Below are positions 2,429 through 14,876 of a DNA stretch of 64,000 nt, one piece after another; positions within the stretch are counted from its first letter, which is position 1, and each line of letters begins with the position of its first letter. Location: the NCBI RefSeq assembly GCF_054482525.1, contig NZ_CM137006.1; one strand, given 5' to 3'. Under the pieces are notes generated by a model that was not told the origin of the DNA, ran no database searches, and saw nothing but the letters and a program-made list of their open reading frames with translations. The translations under genes were made by a program, and so were the position numbers.

Positions 2429-4366
2429 TCAGTAACGACGTCCCCATTCCGTGGCGCTCATCAATGTCGGTTTATCCCCCATGAAATAGCGGTAGTAAGC
2501 GTCATAAGCCAGCACGTTCTTCACATAACCGCGCGTCTCGGAAAACGGAATACTCTCGACGAATGCCACTGCGTCGATACGCCCGGCGCTATTGCCAAGC
2601 CAGGTTCGCACCCGCCCTGGTCCGGCGTTATAAGCTGCTGAGGAGAAAATACGGTTATTACCAAACTGCTGATAAACATATTGCAGGTAACTGGTGCCAA
2701 TGTTGATGTTCGTTTCCGGATCCAGCAATTGTCCTGGGCTGCTATAACCAGGAATAGAGAACATCTTCACCGTATGGGTCGCCGTGCCCGGCATAATCTG
2801 CATCAGGCCGCTGGCCCCTACCGGTGATTTCACTTTCGGATTCCAGGCGCTCTCCTGACGGGCAATCGCCATCGCATAGCTTTGCGGGATCTCCTTCCCA
2901 CTGGTGTAACGTTTGAAAAGATCGTTGTAAGCCAGCGGGAATCGCTCTTCCAGATGATCCCATAGCTTCCCGGCGATCGTTGCCTGAACGCTAAGATCCC
3001 ACCATTGGTTATTGAAAGCATACCGAGCAAGTTGAGCCTGCTCTGTTTTTGACTTGCTCTTCACCAGATTGGCCCACTCGCTACGCGCGGTATTATCGAG
3101 ATTCCAGTACATCAACTCGCGCACGCGCGCCATCTCCGGCCCCTGAGTCAGGGCGCTGTCAACATTCTGCGGCGCTTTATCAATCTTCAGCTCGTACTCT
3201 TCACCGATGCGTTGTGCAGCAACCATCGGGTAGAAACCTCGCTGTTGCATGAGTTGATGCAAAATCTCTTTTGCTTCAGCTTCACGTCCGCGTTCAAGCA
3301 GTAAATCCGCCTGCCAGTAACGCCATTCATCTTTCTCTTTCGCCTCCATCGGCAGACGCGCCAGCCAGGTATTCAGGCCGCGACGATCGCCGGTGCCAAG
3401 CGCCATTCGCACACGGCGTTCAATAAGCGAAGTAGATTGCGAACGCATAATGGCGTCATCACGCCATTTCGCCTGTTCGTCGGTGACATCGTTGCCCATC
3501 AAACGCCAGGCGATGATATCGCGCAGCTCCTGAATCTGATCTTCATTAAGCTGCTGCGCCTGGGCAAGCGACGGGATCATCAGCCGTGCATTTTCAGCAT
3601 CCTGCCGCGCCACACTGGCAAACGCCACCGCCGCCATTTGACGGGTAAAATCGGTCGCTCCGGTTGTACGCGCGAAGGTCAGTACCGTATTAGGGTTGTT
3701 CGCCAGTGAAATGATTGCCGAGGCGATAGTCTGGTAATCGGCAGGCATCTGCCCTGCCAGCACTGTTACCAGGCCAGTGTTACCCGCTTTCATCGCCAGA
3801 CGGATACGCTCTAAATACGCCAGCGGATCTTGTTTACCTGACGCACGCCAGACGCTAAATAACTTGTCACAGGCGTTAGGCTGGCTCTTGCCGGTTAGCC
3901 ACAGCTCTTTCGCCCCTTGCCAGGCTTCTTCACTCTGCCCGGTATTCCATTTCGCATAGTAGTAATTACATTGCGCTTCGGTAGTTCCGGGCTTTTCCGG
4001 GCTAAAGGCTAACAAGCCACGCCAGTCTTCACGCCGCGCCAGTTCATTGACGAAACGAGATTGGAGCGTGCGAGCGGGAGGAAGCGTGGGGTTAGCGCGA
4101 ACAAAGTTAGTGACCGTCACCGCCGGTTGATTCATCAGGTCATCGGTGATCTGACGGTATTCCAGGTAGGGATAAAGCGGATAATCCTTCAGTCCAGGCA
4201 TCATTTGTTCGACCACATCCATTTGTCGATTATCCCAGGCCTGCTTGATTTGGGCGTAGCGGCTACGCTGCTCATCCAGTGAGTCGGCTCGCGCCACGCT
4301 GCTGACCGTCAGCAGACAGACACCGGCAGCCAACAGCCGCCAGGTAACGTGTTTGGCTTTTTCCAC
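2429..4366 (-). CDS. slt: soluble lytic murein transglycosylase Slt70 (GTG start inferred; ORF extends to 4396)
   Basis: 655 aa ORF; signal peptide VTWRLLAAGVCLLTVSSVARA, C-terminal GH23 lysozyme-like domain (...ESAWNPKVKSPVGASGLMQIMPGTA...). Confidence 0.9.
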   Translation of the reverse strand: MEKAKHVTWRLLAAGVCLLTVSSVARADSLDEQRSRYAQIKQAWDNRQMDVVEQMMPGLKDYPLYPYLEYRQITDDLMNQPAVTVTNFVRANPTLPPARTLQSRFVNELARREDWRGLLAFSPEKPGTTEAQCNYYYAKWNTGQSEEAWQGAKELWLTGKSQPNACDKLFSVWRASGKQDPLAYLERIRLAMKAGNTGLVTVLAGQMPADYQTIASAIISLANNPNTVLTFARTTGATDFTRQMAAVAFASVARQDAENARLMIPSLAQAQQLNEDQIQELRDIIAWRLMGNDVTDEQAKWRDDAIMRSQSTSLIERRVRMALGTGDRRGLNTWLARLPMEAKEKDEWRYWQADLLLERGREAEAKEILHQLMQQRGFYPMVAAQRIGEEYELKIDKAPQNVDSALTQGPEMARVRELMYWNLDNTARSEWANLVKSKSKTEQAQLARYAFNNQWWDLSVQATIAGKLWDHLEERFPLAYNDLFKRYTSGKEIPQSYAMAIARQESAWNPKVKSPVGASGLMQIMPGTATHTVKMFSIPGYSSPGQLLDPETNINIGTSYLQYVYQQFGNNRIFSSAAYNAGPGRVRTWLGNSAGRIDAVAFVESIPFSETRGYVKNVLAYDAYYRYFMGDKPTLMSATEWGRRY

Positions 4367-4495
4367 AAGCGCATCCTCTAAGTGTAAATACATCAATGCA
4401 GCGTCATGCCGCGTAATAGATTTATGCTAACCAGTCATTGCCGTTTACGCCACGTTACGGACACTTTTTTACTTTTATACTCTAAATAATTCGAG

Positions 4496-4600
4496 TTGCA
4501 GGAAGGCGATAAGTGAGTGAGTCCCCAGGAGCTTACAGAAGTAAGTGACTGGGGTGAGCGAGCGTAAGCGCAGCACATGCAACTTGAAGTATGACGAGTA
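4496..4600 (+). repeat. copy A of a ~100-nt structured repeat in the ettA 5' leader (second copy at ~59184..59288)
   Basis: ttgcaggaaggcgataagtgagtgagtccccaggagcttacagaagtaagtgactggggtgagcgagcg... about 85% identical to the sequence upstream of btsT; nested hairpin CCCCAG/CTGGGG with CTTAC/GTAAG. Confidence 0.6.
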
Positions 4601-4701
4601 TACTGCGAGGGTGATCGACCGGCTGGGATTAGATAAGGAAACAGGCTACACTTCGCCTTTGAAAACTCATCATCACGATAAACATAGAGGCGAAGTCCAA
4701 C

Positions 4702-6369
4702 GTGGCTCAATTCGTTTATACCATGCATCGTGTCGGCAAAGTTGTTCCGCCGAAACGTCATATTTTGAAAAACATCTCTCTGAGTTTCTTCCCTGGGGCA
4801 AAAATTGGTGTCCTGGGTCTGAACGGCGCGGGTAAGTCCACCCTGCTGCGCATTATGGCGGGCATTGATAAAGACATCGAAGGCGAAGCGCGTCCGCAAC
4901 CGGATATCAAGATTGGTTATCTGCCGCAGGAACCGCAGCTGAACCCGGAACACACCGTGCGTGAGTCCATTGAAGAAGCGGTTTCTGAAGTGGTTAACGC
5001 CCTGAAACGCCTGGATGAAGTGTATGCACTGTACGCCGATCCGGATGCCGATTTTGACAAGCTGGCCGCTGAACAAGGCCGTCTGGAAGAGATCATTCAG
5101 GCTCACGACGGTCACAACCTGAACGTTCAGCTGGAGCGTGCGGCGGATGCGCTGCGTCTGCCGGACTGGGACGCGAAAATCGCTAACCTCTCCGGTGGTG
5201 AGCGTCGTCGCGTGGCGTTGTGCCGCCTGCTGCTGGAAAAACCAGACATGCTGCTGCTCGACGAACCGACCAACCACCTGGATGCCGAATCCGTGGCCTG
5301 GCTGGAACGCTTCCTGCACGACTTCGAAGGCACCGTTGTGGCGATTACCCACGACCGTTACTTCCTTGATAACGTTGCAGGCTGGATCCTCGAACTGGAC
5401 CGCGGTGAAGGTATTCCGTGGGAAGGCAACTACTCCTCCTGGCTGGAGCAGAAAGATCAGCGTCTGGCGCAGGAAGCTTCACAAGAAGCGGCGCGTCGTA
5501 AGTCGATCGAGAAAGAGCTGGAGTGGGTACGTCAGGGGACTAAAGGCCGTCAGTCGAAAGGTAAAGCACGTCTGGCACGCTTTGAAGAGCTGAACAGCAC
5601 CGAATATCAGAAACGTAACGAAACCAACGAACTGTTTATTCCACCAGGACCGCGTCTGGGCGATAAAGTGCTGGAAGTCAGCAATCTGCGTAAATCCTAT
5701 GGCGATCGTCTGCTGATTGACTCCCTGAGCTTCTCGATCCCGAAAGGAGCGATCGTCGGGATCATCGGTCCGAACGGTGCGGGTAAATCGACCCTGTTCC
5801 GTATGATCTCCGGTCAGGAACAGCCGGACAGCGGCACCATCACTCTGGGTGAAACGGTGAAACTGGCATCGGTTGATCAGTTCCGTGACTCAATGGATAA
5901 CAGCAAAACCGTTTGGGAAGAAGTTTCCGGCGGGCTGGATATCATGAAAATCGGCAACACCGAGATGCCAAGCCGCGCCTACGTTGGCCGCTTTAACTTT
6001 AAAGGGGTTGATCAGGGTAAACGCGTTGGTGAACTCTCCGGCGGTGAGCGCGGTCGTCTGCATCTGGCGAAGCTGCTGCAAGTTGGCGGCAACATGCTGC
6101 TGCTCGACGAACCAACCAACGACCTGGATATCGAAACCCTGCGCGCGCTGGAAAACGCCCTGCTGGAGTTCCCGGGCTGCGCGATGGTTATCTCGCACGA
6201 CCGTTGGTTCCTCGACCGTATCGCCACGCACATTCTGGATTACCAGGATGAAGGTAAAGTTGAGTTCTTCGAAGGTAACTTTACCGAGTACGAAGAGTAC
6301 AAGAAACGCACGCTGGGCGCAGACGCGCTGGAGCCGAAGCGTATCAAGTACAAGCGTATTGCGAAGTAA
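4702..6369 (+). CDS. ettA: energy-dependent translational throttle protein EttA (ABC-F ATPase)
   Basis: 555 aa ORF with two ABC ATPase domains (GLNGAGKST... LSGGERRR...; GPNGAGKST... LSGGERGR...). Confidence 0.93.
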   Translation: MAQFVYTMHRVGKVVPPKRHILKNISLSFFPGAKIGVLGLNGAGKSTLLRIMAGIDKDIEGEARPQPDIKIGYLPQEPQLNPEHTVRESIEEAVSEVVNALKRLDEVYALYADPDADFDKLAAEQGRLEEIIQAHDGHNLNVQLERAADALRLPDWDAKIANLSGGERRRVALCRLLLEKPDMLLLDEPTNHLDAESVAWLERFLHDFEGTVVAITHDRYFLDNVAGWILELDRGEGIPWEGNYSSWLEQKDQRLAQEASQEAARRKSIEKELEWVRQGTKGRQSKGKARLARFEELNSTEYQKRNETNELFIPPGPRLGDKVLEVSNLRKSYGDRLLIDSLSFSIPKGAIVGIIGPNGAGKSTLFRMISGQEQPDSGTITLGETVKLASVDQFRDSMDNSKTVWEEVSGGLDIMKIGNTEMPSRAYVGRFNFKGVDQGKRVGELSGGERGRLHLAKLLQVGGNMLLLDEPTNDLDIETLRALENALLEFPGCAMVISHDRWFLDRIATHILDYQDEGKVEFFEGNFTEYEEYKKRTLGADALEPKRIKYKRIAK

Positions 6370-6399
6370 TGCATAAAATGCCGGATGCGGCGCGCCAGC

Positions 6400-6520
6400 A
6401 TCGCATCCGGTATTAGTTAAATGATTAGTCCCCGGAAAAAGGCAGAATTTTCTTTAAGCGTATTAGCTCAGATGCGGACTGACACCTCAAATCAAGCGGG
6501 AACTCATGGTTCCCGCTTAA
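6400..6520. terminator. bidirectional terminator region between convergent ettA and LysR-family gene (REP-like GC hairpin plus second hairpin); approximate
   Basis: gccggatgcggcgcgccagcatcgcatccggt hairpin after ettA stop; aagcgggaactcatggttcccgctt hairpin after LysR gene stop. Confidence 0.5.
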
Positions 6521-6524
6521 CGTT

Positions 6525-7412
6525 TTATTCACCGCGCAAAATCTGGCGGAAATGGGAAACCAGCGGACGTTGGTTGGCTTTATGCCAGGCTGCCCATAAT
6601 TGCGTTGAATAATTCATCCACGGCAATTCACGTAATACCACCCCTTCCGGCGCATTATGACGCAGACTATGTTGAATTAAGGCCAGACCTAATCCCGCAG
6701 CGACCAGACCTAAGGCCGTGAGTGGTTCACCCGCTTCCAGGCGAATATCAGGATTAAACCCGGCGTTAACACAGGCGGCGACAAAATGATCGCGAGAATG
6801 CGCATCGTCGTTATGAATCACCGCAATCCACTGCTCATCGCCAAGTTGTGACGCGACAAGGTTTTCCTCCTGCGCCAGAGGATGATTTTGCGGTAAGGCC
6901 AACAACATTCGATCATCCAGAACCTGAATATATTCCAGATCCTGCTCGCTGTCGGTGGGCGGCGTATCGACCAGAGAAAAATCGAGACTGCGCTGGCGCA
7001 GGCCTTCAATCTGGGTCGCCGGTGGTTGGCTGTAAAGTGCGATATGCACATTCGGACGCGATACACGTAACGTACGTAGCGCCGTAGAAAGCACACCGGA
7101 ATGCATGGCGTTTTCGATATAGCCAATACACAAGCCACCATCTTCCCCCCGTCCCAGGCGTTTGCCTAACGACTCCAGGCGGTTGGCGTGTGTCAGCAAC
7201 GAACGTGTTTCGGCAAGGAATGTCTGTCCATCAGCGGTCAGGCGAATGCGCTGCTGATTACGCTCAAACAGCGTCAGCCCCAGCCGTTCTTCCAGTTGTG
7301 CAATCTGGCGGCTCAGCGGTGATTGCGAGATATGTAATCGCTCGGCTGCGCGTCCCACGTGCTCTTCTTCTGCGACCACCACGAAGTACTTCAGTTGGCG
7401 TAAATCAATCAT
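6525..7412 (-). CDS. LysR-family transcriptional regulator (LTTR), divergent from AKR-SDR-SRPBCC operon
   Basis: ORF 6525..7505; LTTR HTH start MIDLRQLKYFVVVAEEEHVGRAAERLHISQSPLSRQIAQLEERLG at codon 32; ATG with GAGG RBS. Confidence 0.8.
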   Translation of the reverse strand: MIDLRQLKYFVVVAEEEHVGRAAERLHISQSPLSRQIAQLEERLGLTLFERNQQRIRLTADGQTFLAETRSLLTHANRLESLGKRLGRGEDGGLCIGYIENAMHSGVLSTALRTLRVSRPNVHIALYSQPPATQIEGLRQRSLDFSLVDTPPTDSEQDLEYIQVLDDRMLLALPQNHPLAQEENLVASQLGDEQWIAVIHNDDAHSRDHFVAACVNAGFNPDIRLEAGEPLTALGLVAAGLGLALIQHSLRHNAPEGVVLRELPWMNYSTQLWAAWHKANQRPLVSHFRQILRGE

Positions 7413-7458
7413 GTTAGACCTCAAAGGACTTAAGTCAGACGAATTATGTCCTATCAAG

Positions 7459-7482
7459 TCACAACCTCGCAAGGTATTGTGA
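7459..7482. promoter_or_regulatory. candidate LTTR operator TCACAA-N12-TTGTGA in the LysR/AKR divergent intergenic region; approximate
   Basis: interrupted inverted repeat between the divergent start codons (7412 and 7546). Confidence 0.35.
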
Positions 7483-7545
7483 TCCACGTCACAGGGCGAT
7501 AGCAAAAAAATGCCCTAACCCAAACCGAATAATTGAGGACATCTT

Positions 7546-8556
7546 ATGAGCATCAAAAATTTACTTCCCGGCAAAATTGGCTTAGGCGGCGCACCACTCG
7601 GCAACATGTTTCGTGCCATTCCGGAAGACGAGGCCCACGCCACCGTGAGCGAAGCCTGGAACCTGGGCGTGCGTTACTTTGATACCGCGCCGCTGTACGG
7701 CTCTGGCCTTTCTGAAATCCGCATGGGCGAAGCGCTGTCTCAGTATCCACGTGATGAATACGTTCTGAGCAGCAAAGTCGGCCGCATCATGCTGGACGAA
7801 ATGGAAGATCCGGCAAAACGTGATTTCGGTGAAAAAGGTGGCCTGTTCGAACACGGCCTGAAAAACAAAATTCTGAATGACTACTCTGCTGACGCCACGC
7901 TGCGCTCAATTGAAGACAGCCTGAAACGCCTGCAAACAGATCGTCTGGATATTGTCTGGATCCACGACCCGGCGCAGGACTTCTACGGTGACAGCTGGCT
8001 GGAACAGTTCAACATAGCCCGTACCGGTGCGTTTCGTGCGCTGACACGTTTGCGTGACGAAGGTGTGATTAAAGCCTGGGGACTGGGTGTGAATCGCGTC
8101 GAACCTTGCGAACTGACGCTGGCGCTGGACGAACCGAAGCCGGATGCGTTCCTGCTGGCGGGGCGTTATTCCCTGCTGGATCACGAACGTGCGCTGCAAC
8201 GCCTGATGCCAGAAGCACTGGAACAGAACGTGGATATTGTTGTGGGCGGTCCGTACAGCTCTGGCGTACTGGCAGGCGGCGAGCACTTTGAATATCAGAA
8301 AGCTTCTGCGGCCATCCAGCAGAAAGTGGCGCAAATTAACACCATTGCCACACGTTTCAATGTGAACGTTAAAGCAGCTGCGCTGCAGTTCGCGCTGGCA
8401 AACCCGGCCGTTGCGGCGGTTATTCCTGGCTCCAGCCGTCCTGGCCGTATGGCAGAAGATCTGGCCGCACTGAATGCGCCTGTTCCGGCTGAATTCTGGG
8501 CAGAAATGCGCCGTCAAAATCTGGTTGCGGAAAACGCTCCGCTGCCGACCCGTTAA
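7546..8556 (+). CDS. aldo-keto reductase family oxidoreductase
   Basis: 336 aa ORF MSIKNLLPGKIGLGGAPLGNMF...GVRYFDTAPLYGSG...; AKR signature; RBS TGAGGA. Confidence 0.8.
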   Translation: MSIKNLLPGKIGLGGAPLGNMFRAIPEDEAHATVSEAWNLGVRYFDTAPLYGSGLSEIRMGEALSQYPRDEYVLSSKVGRIMLDEMEDPAKRDFGEKGGLFEHGLKNKILNDYSADATLRSIEDSLKRLQTDRLDIVWIHDPAQDFYGDSWLEQFNIARTGAFRALTRLRDEGVIKAWGLGVNRVEPCELTLALDEPKPDAFLLAGRYSLLDHERALQRLMPEALEQNVDIVVGGPYSSGVLAGGEHFEYQKASAAIQQKVAQINTIATRFNVNVKAAALQFALANPAVAAVIPGSSRPGRMAEDLAALNAPVPAEFWAEMRRQNLVAENAPLPTR

Positions 8557-8575
8557 TCAACCTGGTGAGAAAACG

Positions 8576-9373
8576 ATGAAACTGGATCTGACAGGTAAAG
8601 TCGCGGTGGTCAGCGGCTCAACCTCCGGCATTGGGCAGGGTATCGCCGCCGGACTGGCAAAAGCAGGCGCAACGGTGGTTGTCGTCGGCCGTAAACAGAG
8701 CGGCGTTGATGACGCCATGGCTGCGATTGCGGCACAAACCCCCACAGCGTCACTGCGCGGCGTGGTGGCGGATCTCAGCACCGAAGACGGCGTGGCTGCG
8801 CTGATCGCTGCAGTCCCAACGGCTGATGTGCTGGTCAATAATCTGGGCATTTTTAACGATAAAGATTTCTTTAGCGTTCCGGATGATGAGTGGATGCACT
8901 TCTATAACGTCAACGTCCTCTCCGGCGTTCGTCTGGCGCGTCACTATGCGCCAGGCATGACGGAACAGGGCTGGGGGCGGATTATTTTTGTCTCGTCCGA
9001 ATCCGGCGTGGCAATCCCTGGCGACATGATCAACTACGGCGTCACCAAAGCCGCGAATCTGGCGGTTTCTCATGGTCTGGCGAAACGACTGGCGGGGACC
9101 GGTGTGACCGTCAACGCCATACTGCCAGGGCCAACCTTTACCGATGGCCTGAAAGAGATGCTGGCGGATGCCGCTGCACAATCGGGACGCAGTGCGCGTG
9201 AACAGGCCGATGAGTTTGTTAAAACCTCGCGTCCGAGCTCCATCATCCAGCGTGCGGCGGATGTGGAAGAAGTAGCGAATCTGGCGGTTTATCTCGCGTC
9301 ACCGCTTTCCTCGGCAACCACAGGGGCAGCCCTGCGCGTCGATGGCGGTGTCGTCGACACCCTGACTATGTAA
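8576..9373 (+). CDS. short-chain dehydrogenase/reductase (SDR) family oxidoreductase
   Basis: ORF 8474..9373; Rossmann motif start MKLDLTGKVAVVSGSTSGIGQGIA at ATG 8576 with GGTGAG RBS; YxxxK-type catalytic region. Confidence 0.8.
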   Translation: MKLDLTGKVAVVSGSTSGIGQGIAAGLAKAGATVVVVGRKQSGVDDAMAAIAAQTPTASLRGVVADLSTEDGVAALIAAVPTADVLVNNLGIFNDKDFFSVPDDEWMHFYNVNVLSGVRLARHYAPGMTEQGWGRIIFVSSESGVAIPGDMINYGVTKAANLAVSHGLAKRLAGTGVTVNAILPGPTFTDGLKEMLADAAAQSGRSAREQADEFVKTSRPSSIIQRAADVEEVANLAVYLASPLSSATTGAALRVDGGVVDTLTM

Positions 9374-9398
9374 CCCTATAAATTAAGAGAAAATTATC

Positions 9399-9815
9399 AT
9401 GGCTAAAACAACTGTATCGATCGAAATTCCGGCTTCTACCGACGCCGTATGGCAATTGATGGGCGGCTTTGATGCGCTGCCAGACTGGCTGCCGTTCATC
9501 CCGAAAAGCGTAGTGACAGAAGGCGGTCGCGTTCGTTCGCTGACAACCTCTGACGGCGGCACTGTGGTTGAACGTCTGGAAGCGTTTGATAACCGTCAAC
9601 GCAGTTATACCTATTCCATTATTCAGGCACCGTTCCCGGTGGTGGATTACCTCTCCACCATTACCGTTCATGAAACCGCCGACAGCCAGGTTTCCCGTGT
9701 GGAATGGTTCGGTGAATTCACCCCGGTGAATGTGACGAACGAAGAGGCCGAAGCGCTGTTTACCGGCATCTATCGGGATGGTCTCAAGGCGCTGAAGGAC
9801 AACTTTGTTGCCTGA
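9399..9815 (+). CDS. SRPBCC (Bet v1-like / polyketide cyclase-dehydrase fold) family protein
   Basis: 138 aa ORF MAKTTVSIEIPASTDAVWQLMGGFDALPDWLPF...; 25 bp after SDR gene, likely same operon. Confidence 0.65.
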   Translation: MAKTTVSIEIPASTDAVWQLMGGFDALPDWLPFIPKSVVTEGGRVRSLTTSDGGTVVERLEAFDNRQRSYTYSIIQAPFPVVDYLSTITVHETADSQVSRVEWFGEFTPVNVTNEEAEALFTGIYRDGLKALKDNFVA

Positions 9816-9972
9816 TGCAATCGACAGGCGTCGGAACGTCCGGCGTCTGATTATTAACAAAATCAGAATAGTCTATTGTCATTTGTATCATTTATGTTAT
9901 CAGGCAGCAGGCGTATTCTCTCCCCATCGCGTTAATAAACGCCAAACAATTAAGACACTCTGGAATATAAAC

Positions 9973-10185
9973 ATGAAAACGATCATCGCAATTTTTACAG
10001 CTTCTCTTTTCTCTGTCGCGGCGTTTAACGCATCGGCGCAAAGCGTGACAGCAACCGGTACAACACTGGATTCCGCTGAAGCGGTTATTGCGCAGAAAGC
10101 GAAAGAGATGAACGCCTCTGAATATAAAATTACCAGCGCTCGCATGGGCAATACCGTCACCATGAGTGCCGAACTGTATAAATAA
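9973..10185 (+). CDS. small secreted DUF1471 (YdgH/BhsA/McbA-like) stress protein
   Basis: 70 aa, signal peptide MKTIIAIFTASLFSVAAFNASA then ...ASEYKITSARMGNTVTMSAELYK typical of the family. Confidence 0.6.
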   Translation: MKTIIAIFTASLFSVAAFNASAQSVTATGTTLDSAEAVIAQKAKEMNASEYKITSARMGNTVTMSAELYK

Positions 10186-10233
10186 TCGCGCGAGGGACCC
10201 ATTACGTAATTTGCTAAATATGCGCTGAATGCG

Positions 10234-10520
10234 TTGCCATTAATAAACCGTATTGTAATGCCACCGATGACGCGTTCCCGCGCGGGTGACGTTGCGACTG
10301 ACATAATGGCGGACTATTACGCGCAGCGCGCCAGTGCTGGACTTTTCATTAGCGAAGGTACGCAAATCAGCAGAAGCGCTGCGCATAATTTTCCACGGCA
10401 CGCTGATTTACTCCGGTAAAGACACCAAAGCGCGCGCCGAACAGGCGCTGGCTAACGGCTAGTCGGATCTGATTGGATTTGGTCGTCCGTATAGTGCCAA
10501 AAGCGGAAGTTGGTAGTTTC
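10234..10520 (+). pseudogene. remnant of an Old Yellow Enzyme (NemA-like NADH:flavin oxidoreductase) gene with large internal deletion and premature stops
   Basis: ORF 10234..10419 INRIVMPPMTRSRAGDV...MADYYAQRASAGLFISEGTQIS matches OYE N-terminus; downstream ...GKDTKARAEQALANG*SDLIGFGRP matches OYE C-terminal region; intervening ~280 codons missing. Confidence 0.55.
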
Positions 10521-10612
10521 AGCCTATGTTGATAAACGGGGAGCCGGTCAGCACGTAAAGAGATTTTTTTGTACTGCTATGGCCCGATCAAAAATCGATT
10601 GAGCCGAATGTG

Positions 10613-10984
10613 CTAGCTATCTCCGAAGATAATTTTTTCGAGCTCCTGCAAGTCCTGCTGTGATTGCTCGTTAAGGTTAGCCTCTAACTTGTCGTACCAT
10701 GTAAGCAGTTTCTTGCCAAGTGGTGTCAAAACCGAGCCTCCACCTTTACTGCCGCCTGTTGATGTAATTACCACCGGCTTACCTATGCCTTTATTGAGTG
10801 TATCAATCAGGAGCCACGCCCTTTTATAGGGGATTCCCAGATCTTTTGCGGCAGCTGAAAGGGAATGAAACCCATCTATAGCTCGTAAAAGATCGATTTT
10901 CCCCGGTCCCAGCGAGATATTGTCATTAATGTAGATTCGGGGTCTGACCAAAATAAAATCAAACATAAGCGTTTTTTTATTCAT
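10613..10984 (-). CDS. ModE N-terminal-domain-like winged-helix transcriptional regulator (no TOBE domains)
   Basis: ORF 10613..11002; MNKKTLMFDF...IDLLRAIDGFHSLSAAAKDLGIPYKRAWLLIDTLNKGIGKPVVITSTGGSKGGGSVLTPLGKKLL; ATG 10984 preceded by GGAG. Confidence 0.65.
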   Translation of the reverse strand: MNKKTLMFDFILVRPRIYINDNISLGPGKIDLLRAIDGFHSLSAAAKDLGIPYKRAWLLIDTLNKGIGKPVVITSTGGSKGGGSVLTPLGKKLLTWYDKLEANLNEQSQQDLQELEKIIFGDS

Positions 10985-11009
10985 TCTGAGAACTCCGTGC
11001 AAAGTATTT

Positions 11010-11816
11010 TTATCGGGTGTGTTTGAAAGTTTTGATGGCAGAAATAAGAAGGATCACACCAAGTAAAGTCATAAGGGCTTTAAGTGGGAACAAGCCGACC
11101 ATAAGTCCACCAATTGCTGCACCAATTACTGAACCAATAACCATCCATACAAACAGTGTCCTTTCTTGCTTCAGAATCAGGAAAGCATCTGCATTTATAT
11201 AACGGGAAAAGCCAACAATCATTGTTGGCAGGCTAATCATCAGTGAAAGACTTCCGGCCAGTTTAATATCTGCCCCGAAAAGGATAACGATTGTGGGGAT
11301 AAGAAGCTCTCCGCCAGCCACTCCGAGCAATGCTGCGACTATCCCGATAAAGCCCCCTGATACCACCCCCACAATAATCATGGCAAGGCCAGGTTGAAAT
11401 AACCCGCCTGAAATACTGTGCAACGGCATCCAGGCTTCAGAGAGCATGACAAAAGACAGTAAAACAAGCAGGATCAGAATGATTCTGTCCAGCCAGATTC
11501 TGGACATCTTTATGGCACGACCTGCGGCCCACCATGCTCCAATAAGACTTCCTGCCAGCAAATTTATGACAATATCAAGATGCGCCACCAACTGATCAAA
11601 AGATATAGATTTTGTTCGGAAAATTAAAGCAATAGCCACCACGGCGAGACTCATTGCTTTGTTAAAAATGACGGCTTCCAGAGAAGGGATTTTGAAACTA
11701 CCGATCAGTACGGGAAGGCGAAATTCAGCCCCTCCGAGGCCAATCAACCCACCTAAAGCCCCTATTACCGCGCCTGAGAAAAAACCTTTACCATTCCTGT
11801 TTGAAACTGACGACAT
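11010..11816 (-). CDS. TauE/SafE (DUF81) family anion (sulfite/sulfonate-type) exporter, integral membrane
   Basis: 268 aa highly hydrophobic ORF with Gly-rich TM helices (GALGGLIGLGGAEF..., GVAGGELLIPTIVILF...); GAGAGGA RBS. Confidence 0.8.
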   Translation of the reverse strand: MSSVSNRNGKGFFSGAVIGALGGLIGLGGAEFRLPVLIGSFKIPSLEAVIFNKAMSLAVVAIALIFRTKSISFDQLVAHLDIVINLLAGSLIGAWWAAGRAIKMSRIWLDRIILILLVLLSFVMLSEAWMPLHSISGGLFQPGLAMIIVGVVSGGFIGIVAALLGVAGGELLIPTIVILFGADIKLAGSLSLMISLPTMIVGFSRYINADAFLILKQERTLFVWMVIGSVIGAAIGGLMVGLFPLKALMTLLGVILLISAIKTFKHTR

Positions 11817-11833
11817 GCGTTCCTCTCTAATTC

Positions 11834-11855
11834 GTTATGTCTTTTTTGACATAAC
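11834..11855. promoter_or_regulatory. perfect inverted repeat GTTATGTC-TTTTTT-GACATAAC just upstream of the TauE RBS (candidate operator or 5'-UTR hairpin); approximate
   Basis: 8-bp perfect arms, 6-nt T spacer, ~18-39 bp upstream of TauE start. Confidence 0.5.
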
Positions 11856-12000
11856 GACAAGCATAGCATTGCAGAACAGGCGTCTGGTAGTTGCTTGTAA
11901 AGACGAGGATTGATCCAGGTTAAAATTTATTCTATTAACCTGCTCTCCGTTGTTTAACACACCACGATTTATGTGATGCTTTCATGAGAAATTAAAACAA

Positions 12001-12207
12001 CTAAGAACTTCCGCTTCTCGCTCGAAGCGGACTGTCAGATTTGATTGCATTCTGGCTACGCAACTGGTCGGTTGGAATATGAAGTTGCTCACGAATAGCC
12101 TTAGCATCCGCAATTTCGTAGCGGGTCACCCGTGCAGGTTCTTTTAAACCTTGTTTAATCTCAACAGCCTCTTCCAGAGAGGTTTTCAACTTATCAAAAA
12201 AACTCAT
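12001..12207 (-). CDS. small ORF with N-terminal similarity to HigA/MqsA-type antitoxins but lacking the HTH; possible gene remnant
   Basis: 68 aa MSFFDKLKTSLEEAVEIKQGLKEPARVTRYEIADAKAIREQLHIPTDQ...; expected HTH helix absent in all frames downstream. Confidence 0.35.
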   Translation of the reverse strand: MSFFDKLKTSLEEAVEIKQGLKEPARVTRYEIADAKAIREQLHIPTDQLRSQNAIKSDSPLRARSGSS

Positions 12208-12240
12208 TTTATACCTCGCCTTTGAGCCGTTTCGTCACGG

Positions 12241-13473
12241 TTATCTCTGCTCGCCCATCATCTCCCGCACCAGCTCCACACAGCGCAGGAAACGGCTGTC
12301 GTAATCGTCCTCTTCAACCCGCACAAATTCGATATTGTTCTCTTCCAGCATCTCCACCAGCAAGTTCTGGAACTCTTTGCGATCCACCGAACTGCCGAGG
12401 CTGCGTAAACCATCCGCCACCCACGGGGTGTTGTTCTCCAGCAGGATCACCAGATCAAAACGGTATTCATCAATCAGCGCCTGCACGAACGGATGCTCCC
12501 GCCCTTCGTACTTTTTGCAGAACGCCTGGGTAGTGACAAAATCAGTGTCGATAAACGCCACTTTATTGGCATATTTCACTGCAAAATCAATGTATTGAGC
12601 GTGTCCCAGCGCGATTTTATCGTAGTCGGAATACTGCAATGCGATCTCATCACCGCCAAGGTGTGAAAAGACATAATCGCGACCATATTCCCATGCACTG
12701 GTAGTGTTGAAGATATTAGCAAGTTTGTTTACCAGGGTTGATTTACCGCTCGACTCGCCGCCAAGGATCGCCACGGTACGCACAAAGAACGGCTTCACTT
12801 CGGTGGGAATATATTCCCAGTAGCGGAACGGGTTTTCGCGGATCTGCGCACCGCTGATACTCATAAAGGTGCGTTTCGGATCGACCAGCACCGTCTCGAT
12901 CCCCAGATGTTCCATATACTGTGGCGCATCGGCTTCTTCCGAGGTGTAGATCAGGTCCGGCTGGATCCCCTTTTCAGCCATAAACTTTTTGATGCCGTTG
13001 CTCCACACATCCCAGCCGTGCGGATACGGCTCCATGCCCTCTTCGTTGAAGGCATGAATACGGATATTTTTCTGATATTTAAAGGTTTGCAATAACCAGC
13101 GCAGACGATCCGGCACCGTGGGCTGCTGCGACATGGCGCTGTCTTCAAACAACGCACGGTCACGGGTATCGTCAAAGCCCATAATGATATGCAGCTCGTC
13201 AACCTGGCTACAGGCGCGCTGGATAAGGTAGATATGTCCGGTATGCAGCGGGTAGAACTTACCGAATACGACACCAATGGTTTTCTTCTGCCGGGGAAAC
13301 TCAAGCCCCAAAAAACGGTGCAACGCCTCCAGCTTTTGCGCGCTGGGGCTTTTAATTTTGGCATTCAGTAACTGGCTTAAATACCCTTTGGTCATACCGC
13401 TGGCATCAGCTACCTGCTGTAGCGTGCAGCCTTGTTGCTTGATGGCAGTTTTCAGGTAATCAAATGACGACAT
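12241..13473 (-). CDS. nadR: NadR: NMN adenylyltransferase / ribosylnicotinamide kinase / transcriptional repressor
   Basis: ORF 12241..13494; K-12-like start MSSFDYLKTAIKQQGCTLQQVADASGMTKGYLSQLLN at codon 8; Walker A GGESSGKST. Confidence 0.92.
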   Translation of the reverse strand: MSSFDYLKTAIKQQGCTLQQVADASGMTKGYLSQLLNAKIKSPSAQKLEALHRFLGLEFPRQKKTIGVVFGKFYPLHTGHIYLIQRACSQVDELHIIMGFDDTRDRALFEDSAMSQQPTVPDRLRWLLQTFKYQKNIRIHAFNEEGMEPYPHGWDVWSNGIKKFMAEKGIQPDLIYTSEEADAPQYMEHLGIETVLVDPKRTFMSISGAQIRENPFRYWEYIPTEVKPFFVRTVAILGGESSGKSTLVNKLANIFNTTSAWEYGRDYVFSHLGGDEIALQYSDYDKIALGHAQYIDFAVKYANKVAFIDTDFVTTQAFCKKYEGREHPFVQALIDEYRFDLVILLENNTPWVADGLRSLGSSVDRKEFQNLLVEMLEENNIEFVRVEEDDYDSRFLRCVELVREMMGEQR

Positions 13474-13493
13474 ATCTCCCTCCGTATCTCTCA

Positions 13494-14876
13494 TTATAAG
13501 TCGTCGAACACGCTAAGCGCGTCGGAGAGTTTTTTAACGCCAAAAATCTGCATCCCTTCCGGCGCTTTTTTCGGTACGTTAGCCGCCGGAACAATCGCCC
13601 GGCGAAAACCGTGTTTCGCCGCTTCTGAGATACGTTCCTGACCGCTGGGCACCGGGCGGATCTCCCCTGCCAGCCCGACTTCACCAAACACCACCAGATC
13701 CTGCGGCAGCGGTCTGTCGCGCAGGCTGGAAACCATCGCCAGCAGTAACGCTAAGTCGGCGCTGGTTTCGGTTACCTTCACGCCGCCGACCACGTTAACA
13801 AATACATCCTGATCGGCCATTTGCAACCCACCGTGACGGTGCAGCACCGCCAGCAGGATTGCCAGACGGTTTTGCTCCAGCCCTACTGCGACGCGGCGTG
13901 GGTTCGCCATCATCGAGTGATCGACCAATGCCTGAATCTCCACCAGCAGTGGACGCGTTCCTTCCCATACCACCATCACTGAACTACCAGAGGTCACTTC
14001 ATCGCCGCGGCTTAAAAAGATGGCGGAAGGGTTGCTGACTTCACGCAGCCCCTGTTCAGTCATCGCGAAGACGCCCAGCTCATTCACAGCGCCGAAGCGG
14101 TTTTTATGGCTGCGCAGGGTGCGGAAACGGGAGTCGGCATCGCCGTCCAGAAGCACCGAACAGTCGATACAGTGTTCCAGCACTTTCGGGCCAGCCAGCG
14201 AACCATCTTTGGTTACGTGCCCGACCATGACAATCGCCACGCCGCGCGTTTTGGCGAAGCGCGTCAGATAAGCCGCCGTTTCACGCACCTGCGCCACGCT
14301 GCCAGGCGATGACTGTACATCCGCCATATGCATCACCTGGATCGAGTCAATTACCATCAGCTTCGGTTGCTCTTCTTCGGCAATCAGGCAGATCTGCTCG
14401 ATGCTGGTTTCCGACAACATATTGAGATTGTCAGTCGGCAGGCCAAGGCGATGAGCGCGCATTGCCACCTGTTGCAGCGACTCTTCGCCAGTGACATACA
14501 GCGTTTTCATCTGCTGCGCCAGTTTGCACAGCGTTTGCAACAACAGCGTGGATTTCCCCGCACCTGGGTTACCGCCAATCAGAATGGCGCTTCCCGGCAC
14601 CACCCCGCCGCCTAATACGCGGTCGAACTCTTTAAATCCGGTAGAAAAACGCGGCAGCTCCTCAAGGCTGATGTCGGAGAGTTTCTGGACTTTTGCCACT
14701 CCGGCGCTACCGGCATAGCCACTGAGACGCTCGTTACGCGCCACCGTTGGCGACGCAGCAAGACGCACCTCGGTGATGGTGTTCCAGGCATGACAGGCAC
14801 TGCACTGCCCCTGCCAGCGCGGATAATCGGCCCCGCATTCATTACAAACAAAGGCGCGTTTTGGAGCTTTTGCCAC
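13494..14876 (-). CDS. radA: DNA repair protein RadA (Sms)
   Basis: ORF 13494..14924; VAKAPKRAFVCNECGADYPRWQGQCSACHAWNT zinc finger, Walker A GGNPGAGKST; GTG start inferred at codon 17. Confidence 0.92.
   Translation of the reverse strand: MAKAPKRAFVCNECGADYPRWQGQCSACHAWNTITEVRLAASPTVARNERLSGYAGSAGVAKVQKLSDISLEELPRFSTGFKEFDRVLGGGVVPGSAILIGGNPGAGKSTLLLQTLCKLAQQMKTLYVTGEESLQQVAMRAHRLGLPTDNLNMLSETSIEQICLIAEEEQPKLMVIDSIQVMHMADVQSSPGSVAQVRETAAYLTRFAKTRGVAIVMVGHVTKDGSLAGPKVLEHCIDCSVLLDGDADSRFRTLRSHKNRFGAVNELGVFAMTEQGLREVSNPSAIFLSRGDEVTSGSSVMVVWEGTRPLLVEIQALVDHSMMANPRRVAVGLEQNRLAILLAVLHRHGGLQMADQDVFVNVVGGVKVTETSADLALLLAMVSSLRDRPLPQDLVVFGEVGLAGEIRPVPSGQERISEAAKHGFRRAIVPAANVPKKAPEGMQIFGVKKLSDALSVFDDL

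What the first reader, a model, noticed from the sequence alone, without database searches (positions are those of the whole stretch)
6400..12240. 5.8 kb accessory island between the convergent core genes ettA and nadR
From what I recall of K-12 synteny, ettA and nadR are separated by only a short terminator region. Here about 5.8 kb is inserted, carrying nine gene-like units: a LysR regulator, an AKR-SDR-SRPBCC operon, a DUF1471 secreted protein, a decayed OYE reductase gene, a ModE-like regulator with a TauE exporter, and an antitoxin-like stub. The mix of intact operons and decayed genes, with no integrase or IS, suggests an old island undergoing erosion. It is dominated by carbonyl/enone-reducing enzymes and an anion exporter, consistent with an electrophile or xenobiotic detoxification role, but no pathway is assigned.
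Basis: partly seen in the sequence, partly recalled or inferred. Interest (0 to 1): 0.6.

Follow-up and report, generated by a model that had tools for sequence, protein, structure and literature searches.

The report
Eroding mosaic islet inside nadS
About 9% of complete E. coli genomes carry a patchwork of foreign genes inside a dead toxin-antitoxin locus between ettA and nadR; it is an ordinary, already annotated strain-specific islet, and the substrate of its well-kept reductase operon is unknown.

Summary
The window is E. coli PCN033, a phylogroup D strain. Here ettA and nadR are 5,871 bp apart, against 307 bp in K-12. All nine stated gene units match the stated families.

The insert is not one island. 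It is a mosaic lying inside nadS, the antitoxin gene of a decayed RelE/ParE-NadS pair, and both ends of nadS survive as flanks.
- **Module 1 (6494-10500):** LysR, a divergent AKR-SDR-SRPBCC operon, DUF1471 and a broken NemA-like OYE gene. The four-gene core recurs in 571 species-level genomes. The same unit, at 97.7% identity and with an intact OYE, sits at another site in a divergent Escherichia.
- **Module 2 (about 10494-12037; GC 44.2% over 10501-12037):** a ModE-like regulator plus a TauE exporter, 86-92% identical to copies on enterobacterial plasmids.

About 480 of 5,426 genomes carry the islet. Only 20 have the full form, 20 have a GNAT gene in place of module 2, and most have a 1.58-kb deletion there.

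Erosion is confined to the right-hand third. The five left-hand genes are under strong purifying selection (pN/pS 0.03). An electrophile-detoxification role is plausible but untested. There is no integrase, IS or tRNA. Interest is low.

The parts
4702..6369 (+). ettA, the left core flank
   Evidence: PGAP annotation of the identical PCN033 record; ORF
6377..6414 (.). REP-like hairpin after ettA, shared by all alleles of the locus
   Evidence: Inverted repeat I18; identical in K-12, KKo009 and M11957
6425..6457 (-). 3' remnant of nadS (last ~13 codons, with an 11-bp deletion)
   Evidence: blastn to the intact locus of strain KKo009. Translation reads LKENSAFFRGLII*, against IKENPAFFRELASH* in full-length NadS
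6458..6493 (.). 36 bp of unassigned filler between the nadS remnant and module 1
   Evidence: No match in the K-12, KKo009, L005 or L006 alignments
6494..10500 (.). Module 1: LysR / AKR-SDR-SRPBCC / DUF1471 / OYE remnant. The left end is the lysR terminator hairpin at 6494-6518.
   Evidence: 97.7% identical to L005 (strain E69, beside yhiN) and 94.2% to L006 (E. whittamii, glyS-cspA region), with the same left end in all three contexts. Hairpin found.
6525..7412 (-). LysR-type regulator (295 aa), divergent from the operon
   Evidence: NCBIfam full-length LTTR hits; protein identical in four E. coli genomes despite 3-7 synonymous changes
7414..7476 (.). Conserved control block in the lysR-AKR intergenic region; presumed LysR operator and divergent promoters
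   Evidence: Block T.AGACCT....GGACT.AAGT....C..ATTATGTC.T.....GTC is conserved (at least 85% of 24 sequences) across Enterobacterales, Acinetobacter and Pseudomonas. Binding is inferred, not shown.
7546..8556 (+). Aldo/keto reductase (336 aa)
   Evidence: PF00248 in all homologues. Closest solved structures are L-galactose dehydrogenases. dN/dS 0.03-0.08.
8576..9373 (+). Classical SDR oxidoreductase (265 aa)
   Evidence: NCBIfam SDR hits; PDB 8g9m at E=9e-138 and 3t4x at E=1e-70
9399..9815 (+). SRPBCC / Polyketide_cyc2 small ligand-binding protein (138 aa)
   Evidence: PDB 3cnw 'XoxI' and 3f08 at E about 1e-52; PF10604 in the syntenic partner genes
9973..10185 (+). DUF1471 (YhcN/BhsA/RclB-like) secreted stress-family protein, 70 aa
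   Evidence: NCBIfam hits below cutoffs; PGAP name; present only in the Enterobacterales copies
10204..10500 (+). Remnant of a NemA-like OYE alkene reductase: 686-bp internal deletion at 10371|10372, last 109 bp missing, stop codon near the start
   Evidence: Alignment to the intact 365-aa gene of L005
10494..12037 (.). Module 2: ModE-like regulator plus TauE exporter, of plasmid-related origin
   Evidence: 91.9% identical to IncN plasmid pCTX-M15_Kpn2166; 86.5% over both genes on many large Citrobacter/Klebsiella plasmids (Salmonella supplies 103 of the 239 matching records, none inspected). GC 44.2% over 10501-12037.
10501..10518 (.). Left arm of the imperfect inverted repeat bounding module 2 (partner at 11999-12016)
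   Evidence: the repeat finder I1, core 16/18 complementary; also present on plasmid L085
10613..10984 (-). ModE-N-terminal-like winged-helix regulator (123 aa), with no Mop/TOBE domain
   Evidence: TIGR00637 at 81 bits against a 98.5 cutoff; 94-96% aa identity to the plasmid copies; dN/dS 0.08-0.09
11010..11816 (-). TauE/SafE (TSUP) family membrane transporter (268 aa)
   Evidence: Pfam PF01925, E=1.8e-18, covering 11-261; dN/dS 0.09-0.12 against plasmid copies
12010..12031 (.). Hairpin TCCGCTTC-TCGCTC-GAAGCGGA at the right breakpoint, shared by the TauE and GNAT variants. The short-form deletion ends inside it.
   Evidence: A good copy lies left of the module on plasmid L085.
12038..12082 (.). 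45 bp of unassigned sequence between module 2 and the nadS 5' part
   Evidence: No match to the plasmid or to intact nadS
12083..12207 (-). 5' part of nadS (first ~41 codons). The annotated ORF 12001-12207 reads on into foreign sequence.
   Evidence: NF041265 NadS residues 1-49 of 94, 77 bits; blastn 96% to the intact locus; PGAP pseudogene
12241..13473 (-). nadR, the right core flank. The RelE/ParE toxin gene that lies between nadS and nadR in 674 genomes is deleted here, at the same breakpoint as in K-12.

Best explanation
The 5.8 kb is a non-self-mobile, mosaic accessory islet occupying a polymorphic spot of the E. coli chromosome. It is not a single island.

Shown:
- The ancestral content of the ettA-nadR spacer is a RelE/ParE-NadS toxin-antitoxin pair.
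- The toxin gene was deleted first; K-12 has the same breakpoint.
- A roughly 4.8-kb cassette (LysR, AKR-SDR-SRPBCC, DUF1471, OYE) then landed inside nadS, leaving both ends of nadS as flanks.
- A plasmid-related two-gene module (ModE-like regulator plus TauE exporter) is joined to the 3' end of the OYE gene.
- The OYE gene carries an internal deletion.
- In most carriers a further 1.58-kb deletion removed module 2. In one clone a GNAT gene replaced it.
- The five left-hand genes are kept by purifying selection and have diverged in step with the flanks, which indicates one old acquisition inherited vertically.

Inferred (how it works):
- The LysR protein binds the conserved block next to its own start. 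In response to a small diffusible carbonyl compound it switches on the divergent operon.
- The operon's two NAD(P)(H) oxidoreductases, helped by the small SRPBCC ligand-binding protein, convert that compound. Where the OYE ene-reductase is intact it would reduce the C=C bond of an enal, enone or quinone first.
- Module 2 is a separately regulated exporter for an unidentified anion.
- The substrate of neither module is known.
For: Locus states:
- K-12 has a 307-bp spacer with a 55-aa nadS remnant.
- The intact toxin plus 94-aa NadS occurs in 674 of 5,426 genomes and is published as parE-3/yiaG-2 'TA30' (PMC7232551).
- The islet occurs in about 480 genomes and the full form in 20.

nadS is split:
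- Its 3' end lies at 6425-6457 and its 5' end at 12083-12207; the central 116 bp are missing.
- The toxin-deletion breakpoint is identical in K-12, PCN033 and M11957.

Module 1 is a discrete unit:
- It has the same left end in three chromosomal contexts.
- It is 97.7% identical to the copy in strain E69, whose neighbouring core gene yhiN is only 92% identical to E. coli.
- The intact OYE there is NemA-like, 396 bits.

Module 2:
- It matches plasmids at 86-92% and has GC 44.2%.

The short form is a deletion:
- Its junction is at 10441|12019, with CGAA microhomology. It cuts the OYE remnant, which continues to 10500 in the long forms.

Selection:
- 41 synonymous against 4 nonsynonymous differences within E. 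coli, pN/pS 0.03. pS of 0.05 compares with 0.065 and 0.11 in the flanks.
- dN/dS is 0.03-0.17 against other genera.

Functional unit:
- The LysR/AKR/SDR/SRPBCC order is conserved in nearly all of the 80 loci fetched from 571 species-level matches.
- No other flanking gene is conserved across genera.
- An operator-like block is conserved from E. coli to Pseudomonas.
- The AKR-SRPBCC pair sits beside an OYE gene and an HxlR regulator in Gottfriedia, and beside LysR in Streptomyces.
Against: - No expression, binding or enzyme data exist for any gene here.
- The consensus scan found no more promoter-like sites than chance.
- The AKR's closest characterised relatives are L-galactose and D-threo-aldose 1-dehydrogenases, which points to sugar oxidation rather than carbonyl reduction.
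- OYE adjacency is sporadic: it is absent in the Pseudomonas, Serratia, Acinetobacter and Yersinia loci.
- OYE has been lost repeatedly, so it is not needed by the operon.
- How a cassette without a recombinase reached three different sites is unexplained.
- The order in which module 1 and module 2 arrived cannot be fixed.
- Whether the short form derives from the TauE form or the GNAT form cannot be decided.
- Phylogroups of the carriers were not computed. Only PCN033 is documented as phylogroup D (PMC4578781).
Confidence: 0.7

Rival explanations
1. The operon is a sugar-oxidation module. The AKR would be a D-threo-aldose (L-fucose / L-galactose / D-arabinose) 1-dehydrogenase and the SDR would act on the resulting sugar acid or lactone. 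On this reading it has nothing to do with electrophile stress.
For: The closest solved relatives of the AKR are plant L-galactose dehydrogenases (E=5e-30 to 1e-23). IMG and some NCBI records name close homologues 'D-threo-aldose 1-dehydrogenase'. The SDR's characterised relatives include sorbose reductase and hydroxybutyrate dehydrogenase.
Against: No transporter, lactonase, dehydratase or aldolase accompanies the cassette in any genus. Its partners, where present, are stress-type genes: DUF1471, a NemA-like OYE and an HxlR-type regulator. The names are automatic transfers, and identity to the solved enzymes is low.
Confidence: 0.2
2. The islet is ancestral to E. coli and was lost from most lineages. 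It would then not be an insertion gained by one lineage.
For: Divergence inside the islet matches that of the flanks. Relatives occur in other Escherichia species.
Against: The islet interrupts nadS. The intact toxin-antitoxin allele (674 genomes, including APEC O1) contains the 116 bp of nadS that the islet allele lacks, so the intact allele cannot derive from the islet allele. In the other Escherichia species the cassette sits at different loci. The K-12 allele has REP sequence at the spot, not a deletion scar.
Confidence: 0.07
3. The whole insert is inert hitch-hiking DNA on its way to loss, with no function in E. coli.
For: It contains three decayed genes (OYE, nadS, the lost toxin). Module 2 is lost in most carriers. 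One genome has an IS1397 insertion.
Against: Five genes keep intact reading frames in every genome inspected. Between PCN033 and M11957 there are 41 synonymous against 4 nonsynonymous differences. The LysR protein is identical in four genomes.
Confidence: 0.08
4. The right-hand slot (10503|12006) is a site-specific cassette position. The ModE-like/TauE unit and the GNAT gene would be swapped there by a recombinase acting in trans on the flanking hairpin and inverted repeats, as with integron cassettes or small non-autonomous elements.
For: Two different cargos lie between identical breakpoints. Module 2 has 18-bp inverted ends. The same hairpin lies next to the module on an IncN plasmid.
Against: There is no integrase or transposase nearby, no target duplication, and no match of the repeats to integron core sites by inspection. 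Only two cargos are seen, and the GNAT form is a single clone, 100% identical in all 20 genomes. The hairpin occurs once in the 64-kb window.
Confidence: 0.12

Closest known systems
parE-3/yiaG-2 ('TA30') toxin-antitoxin islet in the nadR-ettA spacer of AIEC NRG857c and UPEC CFT073 (PMC7232551)
   Same: It occupies the same chromosomal spot. The nadS stub here is the 5' part of that antitoxin gene (NF041265), and the toxin-bearing allele is found in 674 genomes.
   Different: Here the toxin is gone and the antitoxin is split by 5.6 kb of unrelated cargo, so no functional toxin-antitoxin pair remains.
Electrophile-response modules of E. coli K-12: NemR-NemA-GloA and YqhC-YqhD-DkgA (from established knowledge, not tested here)
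   Same: A dedicated regulator sits next to NAD(P)H-dependent carbonyl and ene reductases. The OYE of the intact cassette scores 396 bits on the NemA subfamily model.
   Different: The regulator family differs (LysR, not TetR or AraC). There is an added SDR and an SRPBCC protein. No inducer or substrate is known, and the OYE is dead in E. coli.
D-threo-aldose 1-dehydrogenase / L-galactose dehydrogenase branch of the AKR superfamily
   Same: It gives the best solved-structure and automatic-name matches for the AKR.
   Different: Similarity to the characterised enzymes is modest (E about 1e-23 to 1e-30, best stretch about 70 residues). No sugar pathway genes accompany it.
TauE/SafE (TSUP) anion exporters, e.g. 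the sulfoacetate/sulfite exporters of Cupriavidus necator (from established knowledge)
   Same: Full-length Pfam PF01925 match.
   Different: It is paired with a short ModE-N-terminal-type regulator and travels on plasmids, beside nickel-resistance genes (ncrABCY) on one IncN plasmid and near a second TauE-FmdE pair on another. The substrate is unknown, and there are no taurine or sulfonate genes.
Small recombinase-less E. coli islets that are lost by RecA-independent recombination between short repeats (H47 island model, PMC5426353)
   Same: It has no integrase, and the deletion derivative is joined at a short microhomology (CGAA).
   Different: It has no long direct repeats (att-like) at its ends, and mobility has not been shown.

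Membership tests
Classical genomic island (integrase-borne, tRNA-linked) | Integrase or other recombinase gene | tested here: not met
   None in the PGAP annotation or the ORF list. The intergenic gaps are at most 184 bp.
Classical genomic island (integrase-borne, tRNA-linked) | Insertion at a tRNA/tmRNA gene with flanking direct repeats | tested here: not met
   ARAGORN found no tRNA in 4000-14000. There are no direct repeats at the ends.
Classical genomic island (integrase-borne, tRNA-linked) | Deviant base composition | tested here: inconclusive
   Module 2 deviates (GC 44.2%, GC3 43-47%). Module 1, at 53.8%, equals the flanks at 54%.
Type II toxin-antitoxin system (RelE/ParE toxin + NadS/YiaG-like antitoxin) | Intact toxin gene | tested here: not met
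   The toxin region of the intact allele (L004 3127-3459) is absent. The deletion breakpoint is as in K-12.
Type II toxin-antitoxin system (RelE/ParE toxin + NadS/YiaG-like antitoxin) | Full-length antitoxin with HTH domain | tested here: not met
   Only residues 1-49 of 94 match NF041265. The HTH part (residues ~35-90) is missing, and a 13-codon 3' remnant lies 5.6 kb away.
LysR-type transcriptional regulator with divergent target operon | N-terminal HTH plus LysR substrate-binding domain, full length | tested here: met
   Full-length hits to many LTTR models, best E=4e-66 over residues 3-292. PF00126 and PF03466 are found in the Streptomyces counterpart.
LysR-type transcriptional regulator with divergent target operon | Divergent arrangement with a conserved operator in the shared intergenic region | tested here: met
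   The arrangement is conserved in nearly all of the 80 loci. A sequence block is conserved from E. coli to Pseudomonas. Binding itself was not tested.
Aldo/keto reductase superfamily | Aldo_ket_red fold over the full length | tested here: met
   PF00248 is precomputed for the 99%-identical cluster representative and all homologues; NCBIfam AKR hits.
Aldo/keto reductase superfamily | Defined substrate (D-threo-aldose 1-dehydrogenase or methylglyoxal reductase equivalog) | tested here: not met
   The best equivalog, YdjG, scores 72 bits against a cutoff of 550. The 'D-threo-aldose' names are automatic.
Old Yellow Enzyme / NemA alkene reductase | Intact roughly 365-aa reading frame | tested here: not met
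   There is a 686-bp internal deletion, the last 109 bp are missing, and a stop lies near the start. The gene is intact only in L005, L009 and L015.
ModE molybdate-responsive regulator | N-terminal ModE-type wHTH domain | tested here: inconclusive
   TIGR00637 at E=4.5e-23 and 81 bits, below the curated cutoff of 98.5.
ModE molybdate-responsive regulator | C-terminal molybdate-binding (Mop/TOBE) domains | tested here: not met
   The protein is 123 aa. The match to full-length ModE (263 positions) covers only profile positions 12-94.
TauE/SafE (TSUP) transporter | TauE Pfam domain spanning the protein | tested here: met
   PF01925, E=1.8e-18, residues 11-261 of 267.
TauE/SafE (TSUP) transporter | Sulfite/sulfoacetate export activity | not testable with these tools
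   No biochemical data. The neighbourhood gives no sulfonate genes.
Transposon / MITE-like element (module 2) | Terminal inverted repeats with target-site duplication | tested here: inconclusive
   18-bp inverted ends, 16/18 complementary, also on plasmid L085. No target duplication and no transposase.

The most novel reading that the evidence does not exclude
The AKR-SRPBCC pair, with LysR and usually an SDR, would be a horizontally spreading two-to-four-gene module. It is kept at 72-76% protein identity from E. coli to Streptomyces and Bacillus relatives. On this reading it deals with one specific, widespread environmental or host-derived reactive carbonyl (a quinone or enal class), and the SRPBCC protein acts as an obligatory substrate-binding partner of the reductase. 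The E. coli islet would then be a lineage-specific gain of a still unnamed detoxification pathway.
Probability: 0.2. Interest if true: 0.5.

Novelty: new member of a known kind. Interest (0 to 1): 0.25.

Why it matters
Mostly as bookkeeping.
- It shows that the ettA-nadR spacer is a multi-allelic hot spot built on a decaying toxin-antitoxin locus.
- It shows that the recently annotated K-12 gene nadS is itself a truncated antitoxin.
- It shows that a lineage containing major extraintestinal pathogens carries a selectively maintained LysR-controlled oxidoreductase operon of unknown substrate.

The islet could serve as a lineage marker. The operon is widespread in Pseudomonas, Serratia, Yersinia, Acinetobacter, Burkholderia-type bacteria and Streptomyces, so it is a reasonable target for substrate discovery. 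Nothing here challenges current understanding.

Tried and rejected
- **Rfam, E up to 1, on 6000-12600:** only a chance miRNA hit.
- **Promoter and terminator scans:** counts not above the shuffles. Only the lysR terminator hairpin and the 12010-12031 hairpin were of use.
- **tRNA scan:** none.
- **PADLOC defence models** on the toxin, NadS, OYE, GNAT, ModE-like and TauE proteins: nothing beyond weak HTH hits.
- **Extra partner genes conserved across genera around the cassette:** none. The recurrent neighbours are Pseudomonas-only synteny.
- **Module 1 on plasmids:** only distant copies (at most 72% DNA identity) on megaplasmids and chromids, so no plasmid vector was identified.
- **Literature searches** for the operon, for 'XoxI' and for TauE with ModE: nothing relevant.
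- **Accessions NC_011751.1 (UMN026) and NZ_CP089930.1:** not in the collection, so phylogroup membership of carriers could not be checked directly.
- **Withdrawn claim:** I first concluded that the short form must derive from the TauE form because it keeps 19 bp of that module's right end. After finding the GNAT variant, which shares that same end, I withdrew this. The short form derives from one of the two long forms, and which one is undecided.
- **Rejected: the apparent 34-nt inverted repeat around module 2 as a whole.** Its outer part on the left is OYE coding sequence. Only the inner 18 bp are credible.

Full report
**Identity of the window and check of the observation.**
The stretch 4700-13500 is 100% identical to the chromosome of E. 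coli PCN033. PCN033 is a porcine extraintestinal pathogen of phylogroup D (PMC4578781). ettA ends at 6369 and the convergent nadR ends at 12241, so the spacer is 5,871 bp. In K-12 the spacer is 307 bp (the same figure appears in PMC7232551).

- a full-length LysR regulator;
- an aldo/keto reductase (AKR);
- a classical SDR;
- a 138-aa SRPBCC protein;
- a 70-aa DUF1471 protein;
- pieces of a NemA-like OYE gene;
- a 123-aa ModE-N-terminal-like winged-helix protein;
- a TauE/SafE transporter (Pfam E=1.8e-18);
- the first 49 residues of a 94-residue NadS antitoxin.

No tRNA, integrase or IS lies in the stretch, and Rfam finds nothing.

**The locus is multi-allelic and built on a toxin-antitoxin pair.**
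Among 5,426 complete E. coli genomes the spacer comes in at least five states.

| State | Share or count |
|---|---|
| K-12-like: REP sequence plus a 55-aa nadS remnant | about two thirds (spread sample) |
| Intact RelE/ParE toxin plus 94-aa NadS | 674 genomes |
| Shorter form without nadS | about 8% (spread sample) |
| Islet, any form | about 480 genomes |

The intact pair has been published as parE-3/yiaG-2 'TA30' (PMC7232551). K-12 nadS has only recently been annotated and shown to be translated (PMC12350097). Junction alignments show it is a truncated antitoxin. Its first 38 codons match NadS, and the rest reads into REP sequence.

**The islet lies inside nadS.**
The comparison is with the intact allele of strain KKo009.
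- PCN033 keeps the last ~13 codons of nadS at 6425-6457. The translation is LKENSAFFRGLII*, against IKENPAFFRELASH*.
- It keeps the first ~41 codons at 12083-12207.
- The central 116 bp of nadS are missing.
- The toxin gene is deleted at exactly the breakpoint seen in K-12.

The likely order is: intact pair, then toxin loss, then insertion into the orphan antitoxin. The intact allele contains sequence that the islet allele lacks. The islet is therefore derived, not ancestral.

**Two modules of different origin.**
*Module 1 (6494-10500).*
- It starts at the lysR terminator hairpin.
- It is 97.7% identical to a copy in the record titled E. coli strain E69, where it lies beside yhiN. That strain's yhiN is only about 92% identical to E. 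coli. Its OYE protein clusters with E. ruysiae and E. marmotae proteins.
- It is 94.2% identical to a copy in E. whittamii, between the glyS and cspA regions.
- All three copies share the same left end but have unrelated flanks.
- In E69 the OYE gene is intact: 365 aa, 396 bits on the NemA subfamily model.
- In PCN033 the OYE gene has a 686-bp internal deletion at 10371|10372 and lacks its last 109 bp.
- E. whittamii has a different, 638-bp deletion. Trabulsiella odontotermitis shows an apparent frameshift.

*Module 2 (about 10494-12037).*
- It has GC 44.2% (measured over 10501-12037) and GC3 43-47%, against 60-65% in the core genes.
- It is 91.9% identical to a segment of an IncN Klebsiella plasmid that lies beside the ncrABCY nickel-resistance genes.
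- It is 86.5% identical, over both genes, to the listed copies on large Citrobacter and Klebsiella plasmids. Of the 239 matching plasmid records, 103 are from Salmonella, but none of those was listed or inspected.
- It has 18-bp imperfect inverted ends. A hairpin at 12010-12031 also flanks the plasmid copy.

**Variants and erosion.**

| Form | Genomes | Notes |
|---|---|---|
| Full form, with ModE-like/TauE | 20 | 99.2-100% identical in module 2 |
| GNAT form | 20 | 10504-12005 replaced by 647 bp carrying a GNAT acetyltransferase; identical breakpoints; all 20 copies 100% identical, so a recent event in one clone |
| Short form | most carriers | lacks 10442-12018; junction falls inside the OYE remnant and the shared hairpin, at a CGAA microhomology |

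The short form is a deletion derivative of one of the two long forms; which one cannot be decided. One genome carries an IS1397 insertion.

**The left-hand genes are maintained.**
- Between PCN033 and a short-form strain, the five intact genes differ at 41 synonymous and 4 nonsynonymous sites (pN/pS 0.03).
- Their pS of 0.05 is close to that of ettA (0.065) and nadR (0.11). This fits one old acquisition followed by vertical descent.
- Against other genera dN/dS is 0.03-0.17. The module 2 genes show 0.08-0.12 against their plasmid copies.

**What the operon is.**
- A scan of one genome per species found 571 relatives of the AKR. In nearly all of the 80 loci fetched, the order is LysR, then divergent AKR-SDR-SRPBCC. 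These loci span Enterobacterales, Acinetobacter and many Pseudomonas.
- Distant copies occur in Burkholderia-type bacteria and Streptomyces.
- No other neighbouring gene is conserved across genera, so the cassette is self-contained and has no transporter.
- A sequence block next to the lysR start (7414-7476) is conserved from E. coli to Pseudomonas. I take this as the operator, although binding was not tested.
- The AKR is 72-76% identical to proteins of Streptomyces, Bacillus/Gottfriedia and Janthinobacterium.
- In Gottfriedia the gene order is OYE, HxlR-type regulator, AKR, SRPBCC. In Streptomyces it is LysR, AKR, SRPBCC.
- The AKR-SRPBCC pair is therefore the invariant core. The association with an OYE recurs in a distant phylum.
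- From established knowledge, HxlR/DUF24-type regulators and NemA-type enzymes belong to electrophile responses.
- Against that idea, the AKR's closest characterised relatives are L-galactose and D-threo-aldose dehydrogenases.
- The closest structures of the SDR (8g9m, 3t4x) and the SRPBCC protein (3cnw, 3f08) carry only generic or uninformative molecule names in the PDB.
- No paper on the operon was found.

I rate the reactive-carbonyl reading as the most likely but unproven, and sugar oxidation as the main rival.

**Module 2.**
The regulator has only the ModE-type DNA-binding domain. It scores 81 bits, below the curated cutoff, and has no molybdate-binding domains. The TauE match is full length. 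Plasmid neighbourhoods (nickel resistance; a second TauE with an FmdE-family gene) do not identify a substrate. 'Regulated anion exporter, substrate unknown' is as far as the evidence goes.

**Verdict.**
This is an ordinary strain-specific islet that RefSeq already annotates gene by gene.

New here are:
- its anatomy: nested in a dead antitoxin gene, made of two modules, with three length variants;
- the demonstration that its left part is under selection while its right part decays;
- the link to a widely distributed operon of unknown substrate.

Unexplained are:
- how a recombinase-less cassette reached three different intergenic sites;
- how two cargos came to occupy the same pair of breakpoints.

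Interest is low.

Noticed in passing
L002 2944-3111 (K-12) compared with L004 2841-3459; window 12083-12207: The K-12 gene annotated as nadS (55 aa) is a truncated antitoxin. Only its first 38 codons match the 94-aa NadS of the intact RelE/ParE-NadS pair. The rest reads into REP sequence, and the toxin gene is deleted at the same breakpoint as in PCN033.
   Followed up: yes
L087 5804-6450 (strain 1190), equivalent to window 10504-12005: In 20 genomes (all copies 100% identical) a GNAT acetyltransferase segment replaces the ModE-like/TauE module between exactly the same two breakpoints. The mechanism is unknown.
   Followed up: partly
window 10501-10518 and 11999-12016; hairpin 12010-12031; L085 about 5950-5975: Module 2 has 18-bp imperfect inverted ends. 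A hairpin TCCGCTTC-TCGCTC-GAAGCGGA abuts its right end in the chromosome and lies to its left on an IncN plasmid. No transposase or target duplication was seen.
   Followed up: partly
L005 10659-11756; L006 10656-11111; L014 5449-6527; window 10204-10500: The OYE gene next to the cassette has been inactivated in three different ways: in E. coli by a 686-bp deletion plus 3' truncation, in E. whittamii by a 638-bp deletion, and in Trabulsiella odontotermitis by an apparent frameshift. The adjacent AKR-SDR-SRPBCC genes stay intact in all three.
   Followed up: partly
window 7546-8556 and proteins P0162-P0253: The AKR is 72-76% identical to proteins from Streptomyces, Saccharopolyspora, Bacillus/Gottfriedia, Paenibacillaceae, Janthinobacterium and Paraburkholderia. 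This is unusually high across phyla and suggests wide horizontal spread of the AKR-SRPBCC pair.
   Followed up: partly
window 7414-7476: A block in the lysR-AKR intergenic region is conserved from Escherichia to Pseudomonas and Acinetobacter. It includes the palindrome GACTTAAGTC and the motif ATTATGTC. It is a candidate LysR operator.
   Followed up: partly
L086 3680-5098 (plasmid pKPC-933d): On large Citrobacter/Klebsiella plasmids a second TauE-family gene, paired with an FmdE-family gene, lies about 2 kb from the ModE-like/TauE pair. The two are separated by a broken IS110-type transposase gene, with a resolvase-type recombinase on the other side.
   Followed up: no
H183 (strain STO_Bone2) and H233-H237: One carrier has an IS1397 insertion in the islet region. 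About 8% of genomes have a still shorter ettA-nadR spacer (3,050-bp span) with no annotated nadS at all.
   Followed up: no
H239, plasmid NZ_AP027577.1 189219-190052: Thirty-eight plasmid places match the query at lower identity; the one listed, at 79%, is the 5' part of ettA against a plasmid-borne ABC-F ATPase gene related to ettA.
   Followed up: no
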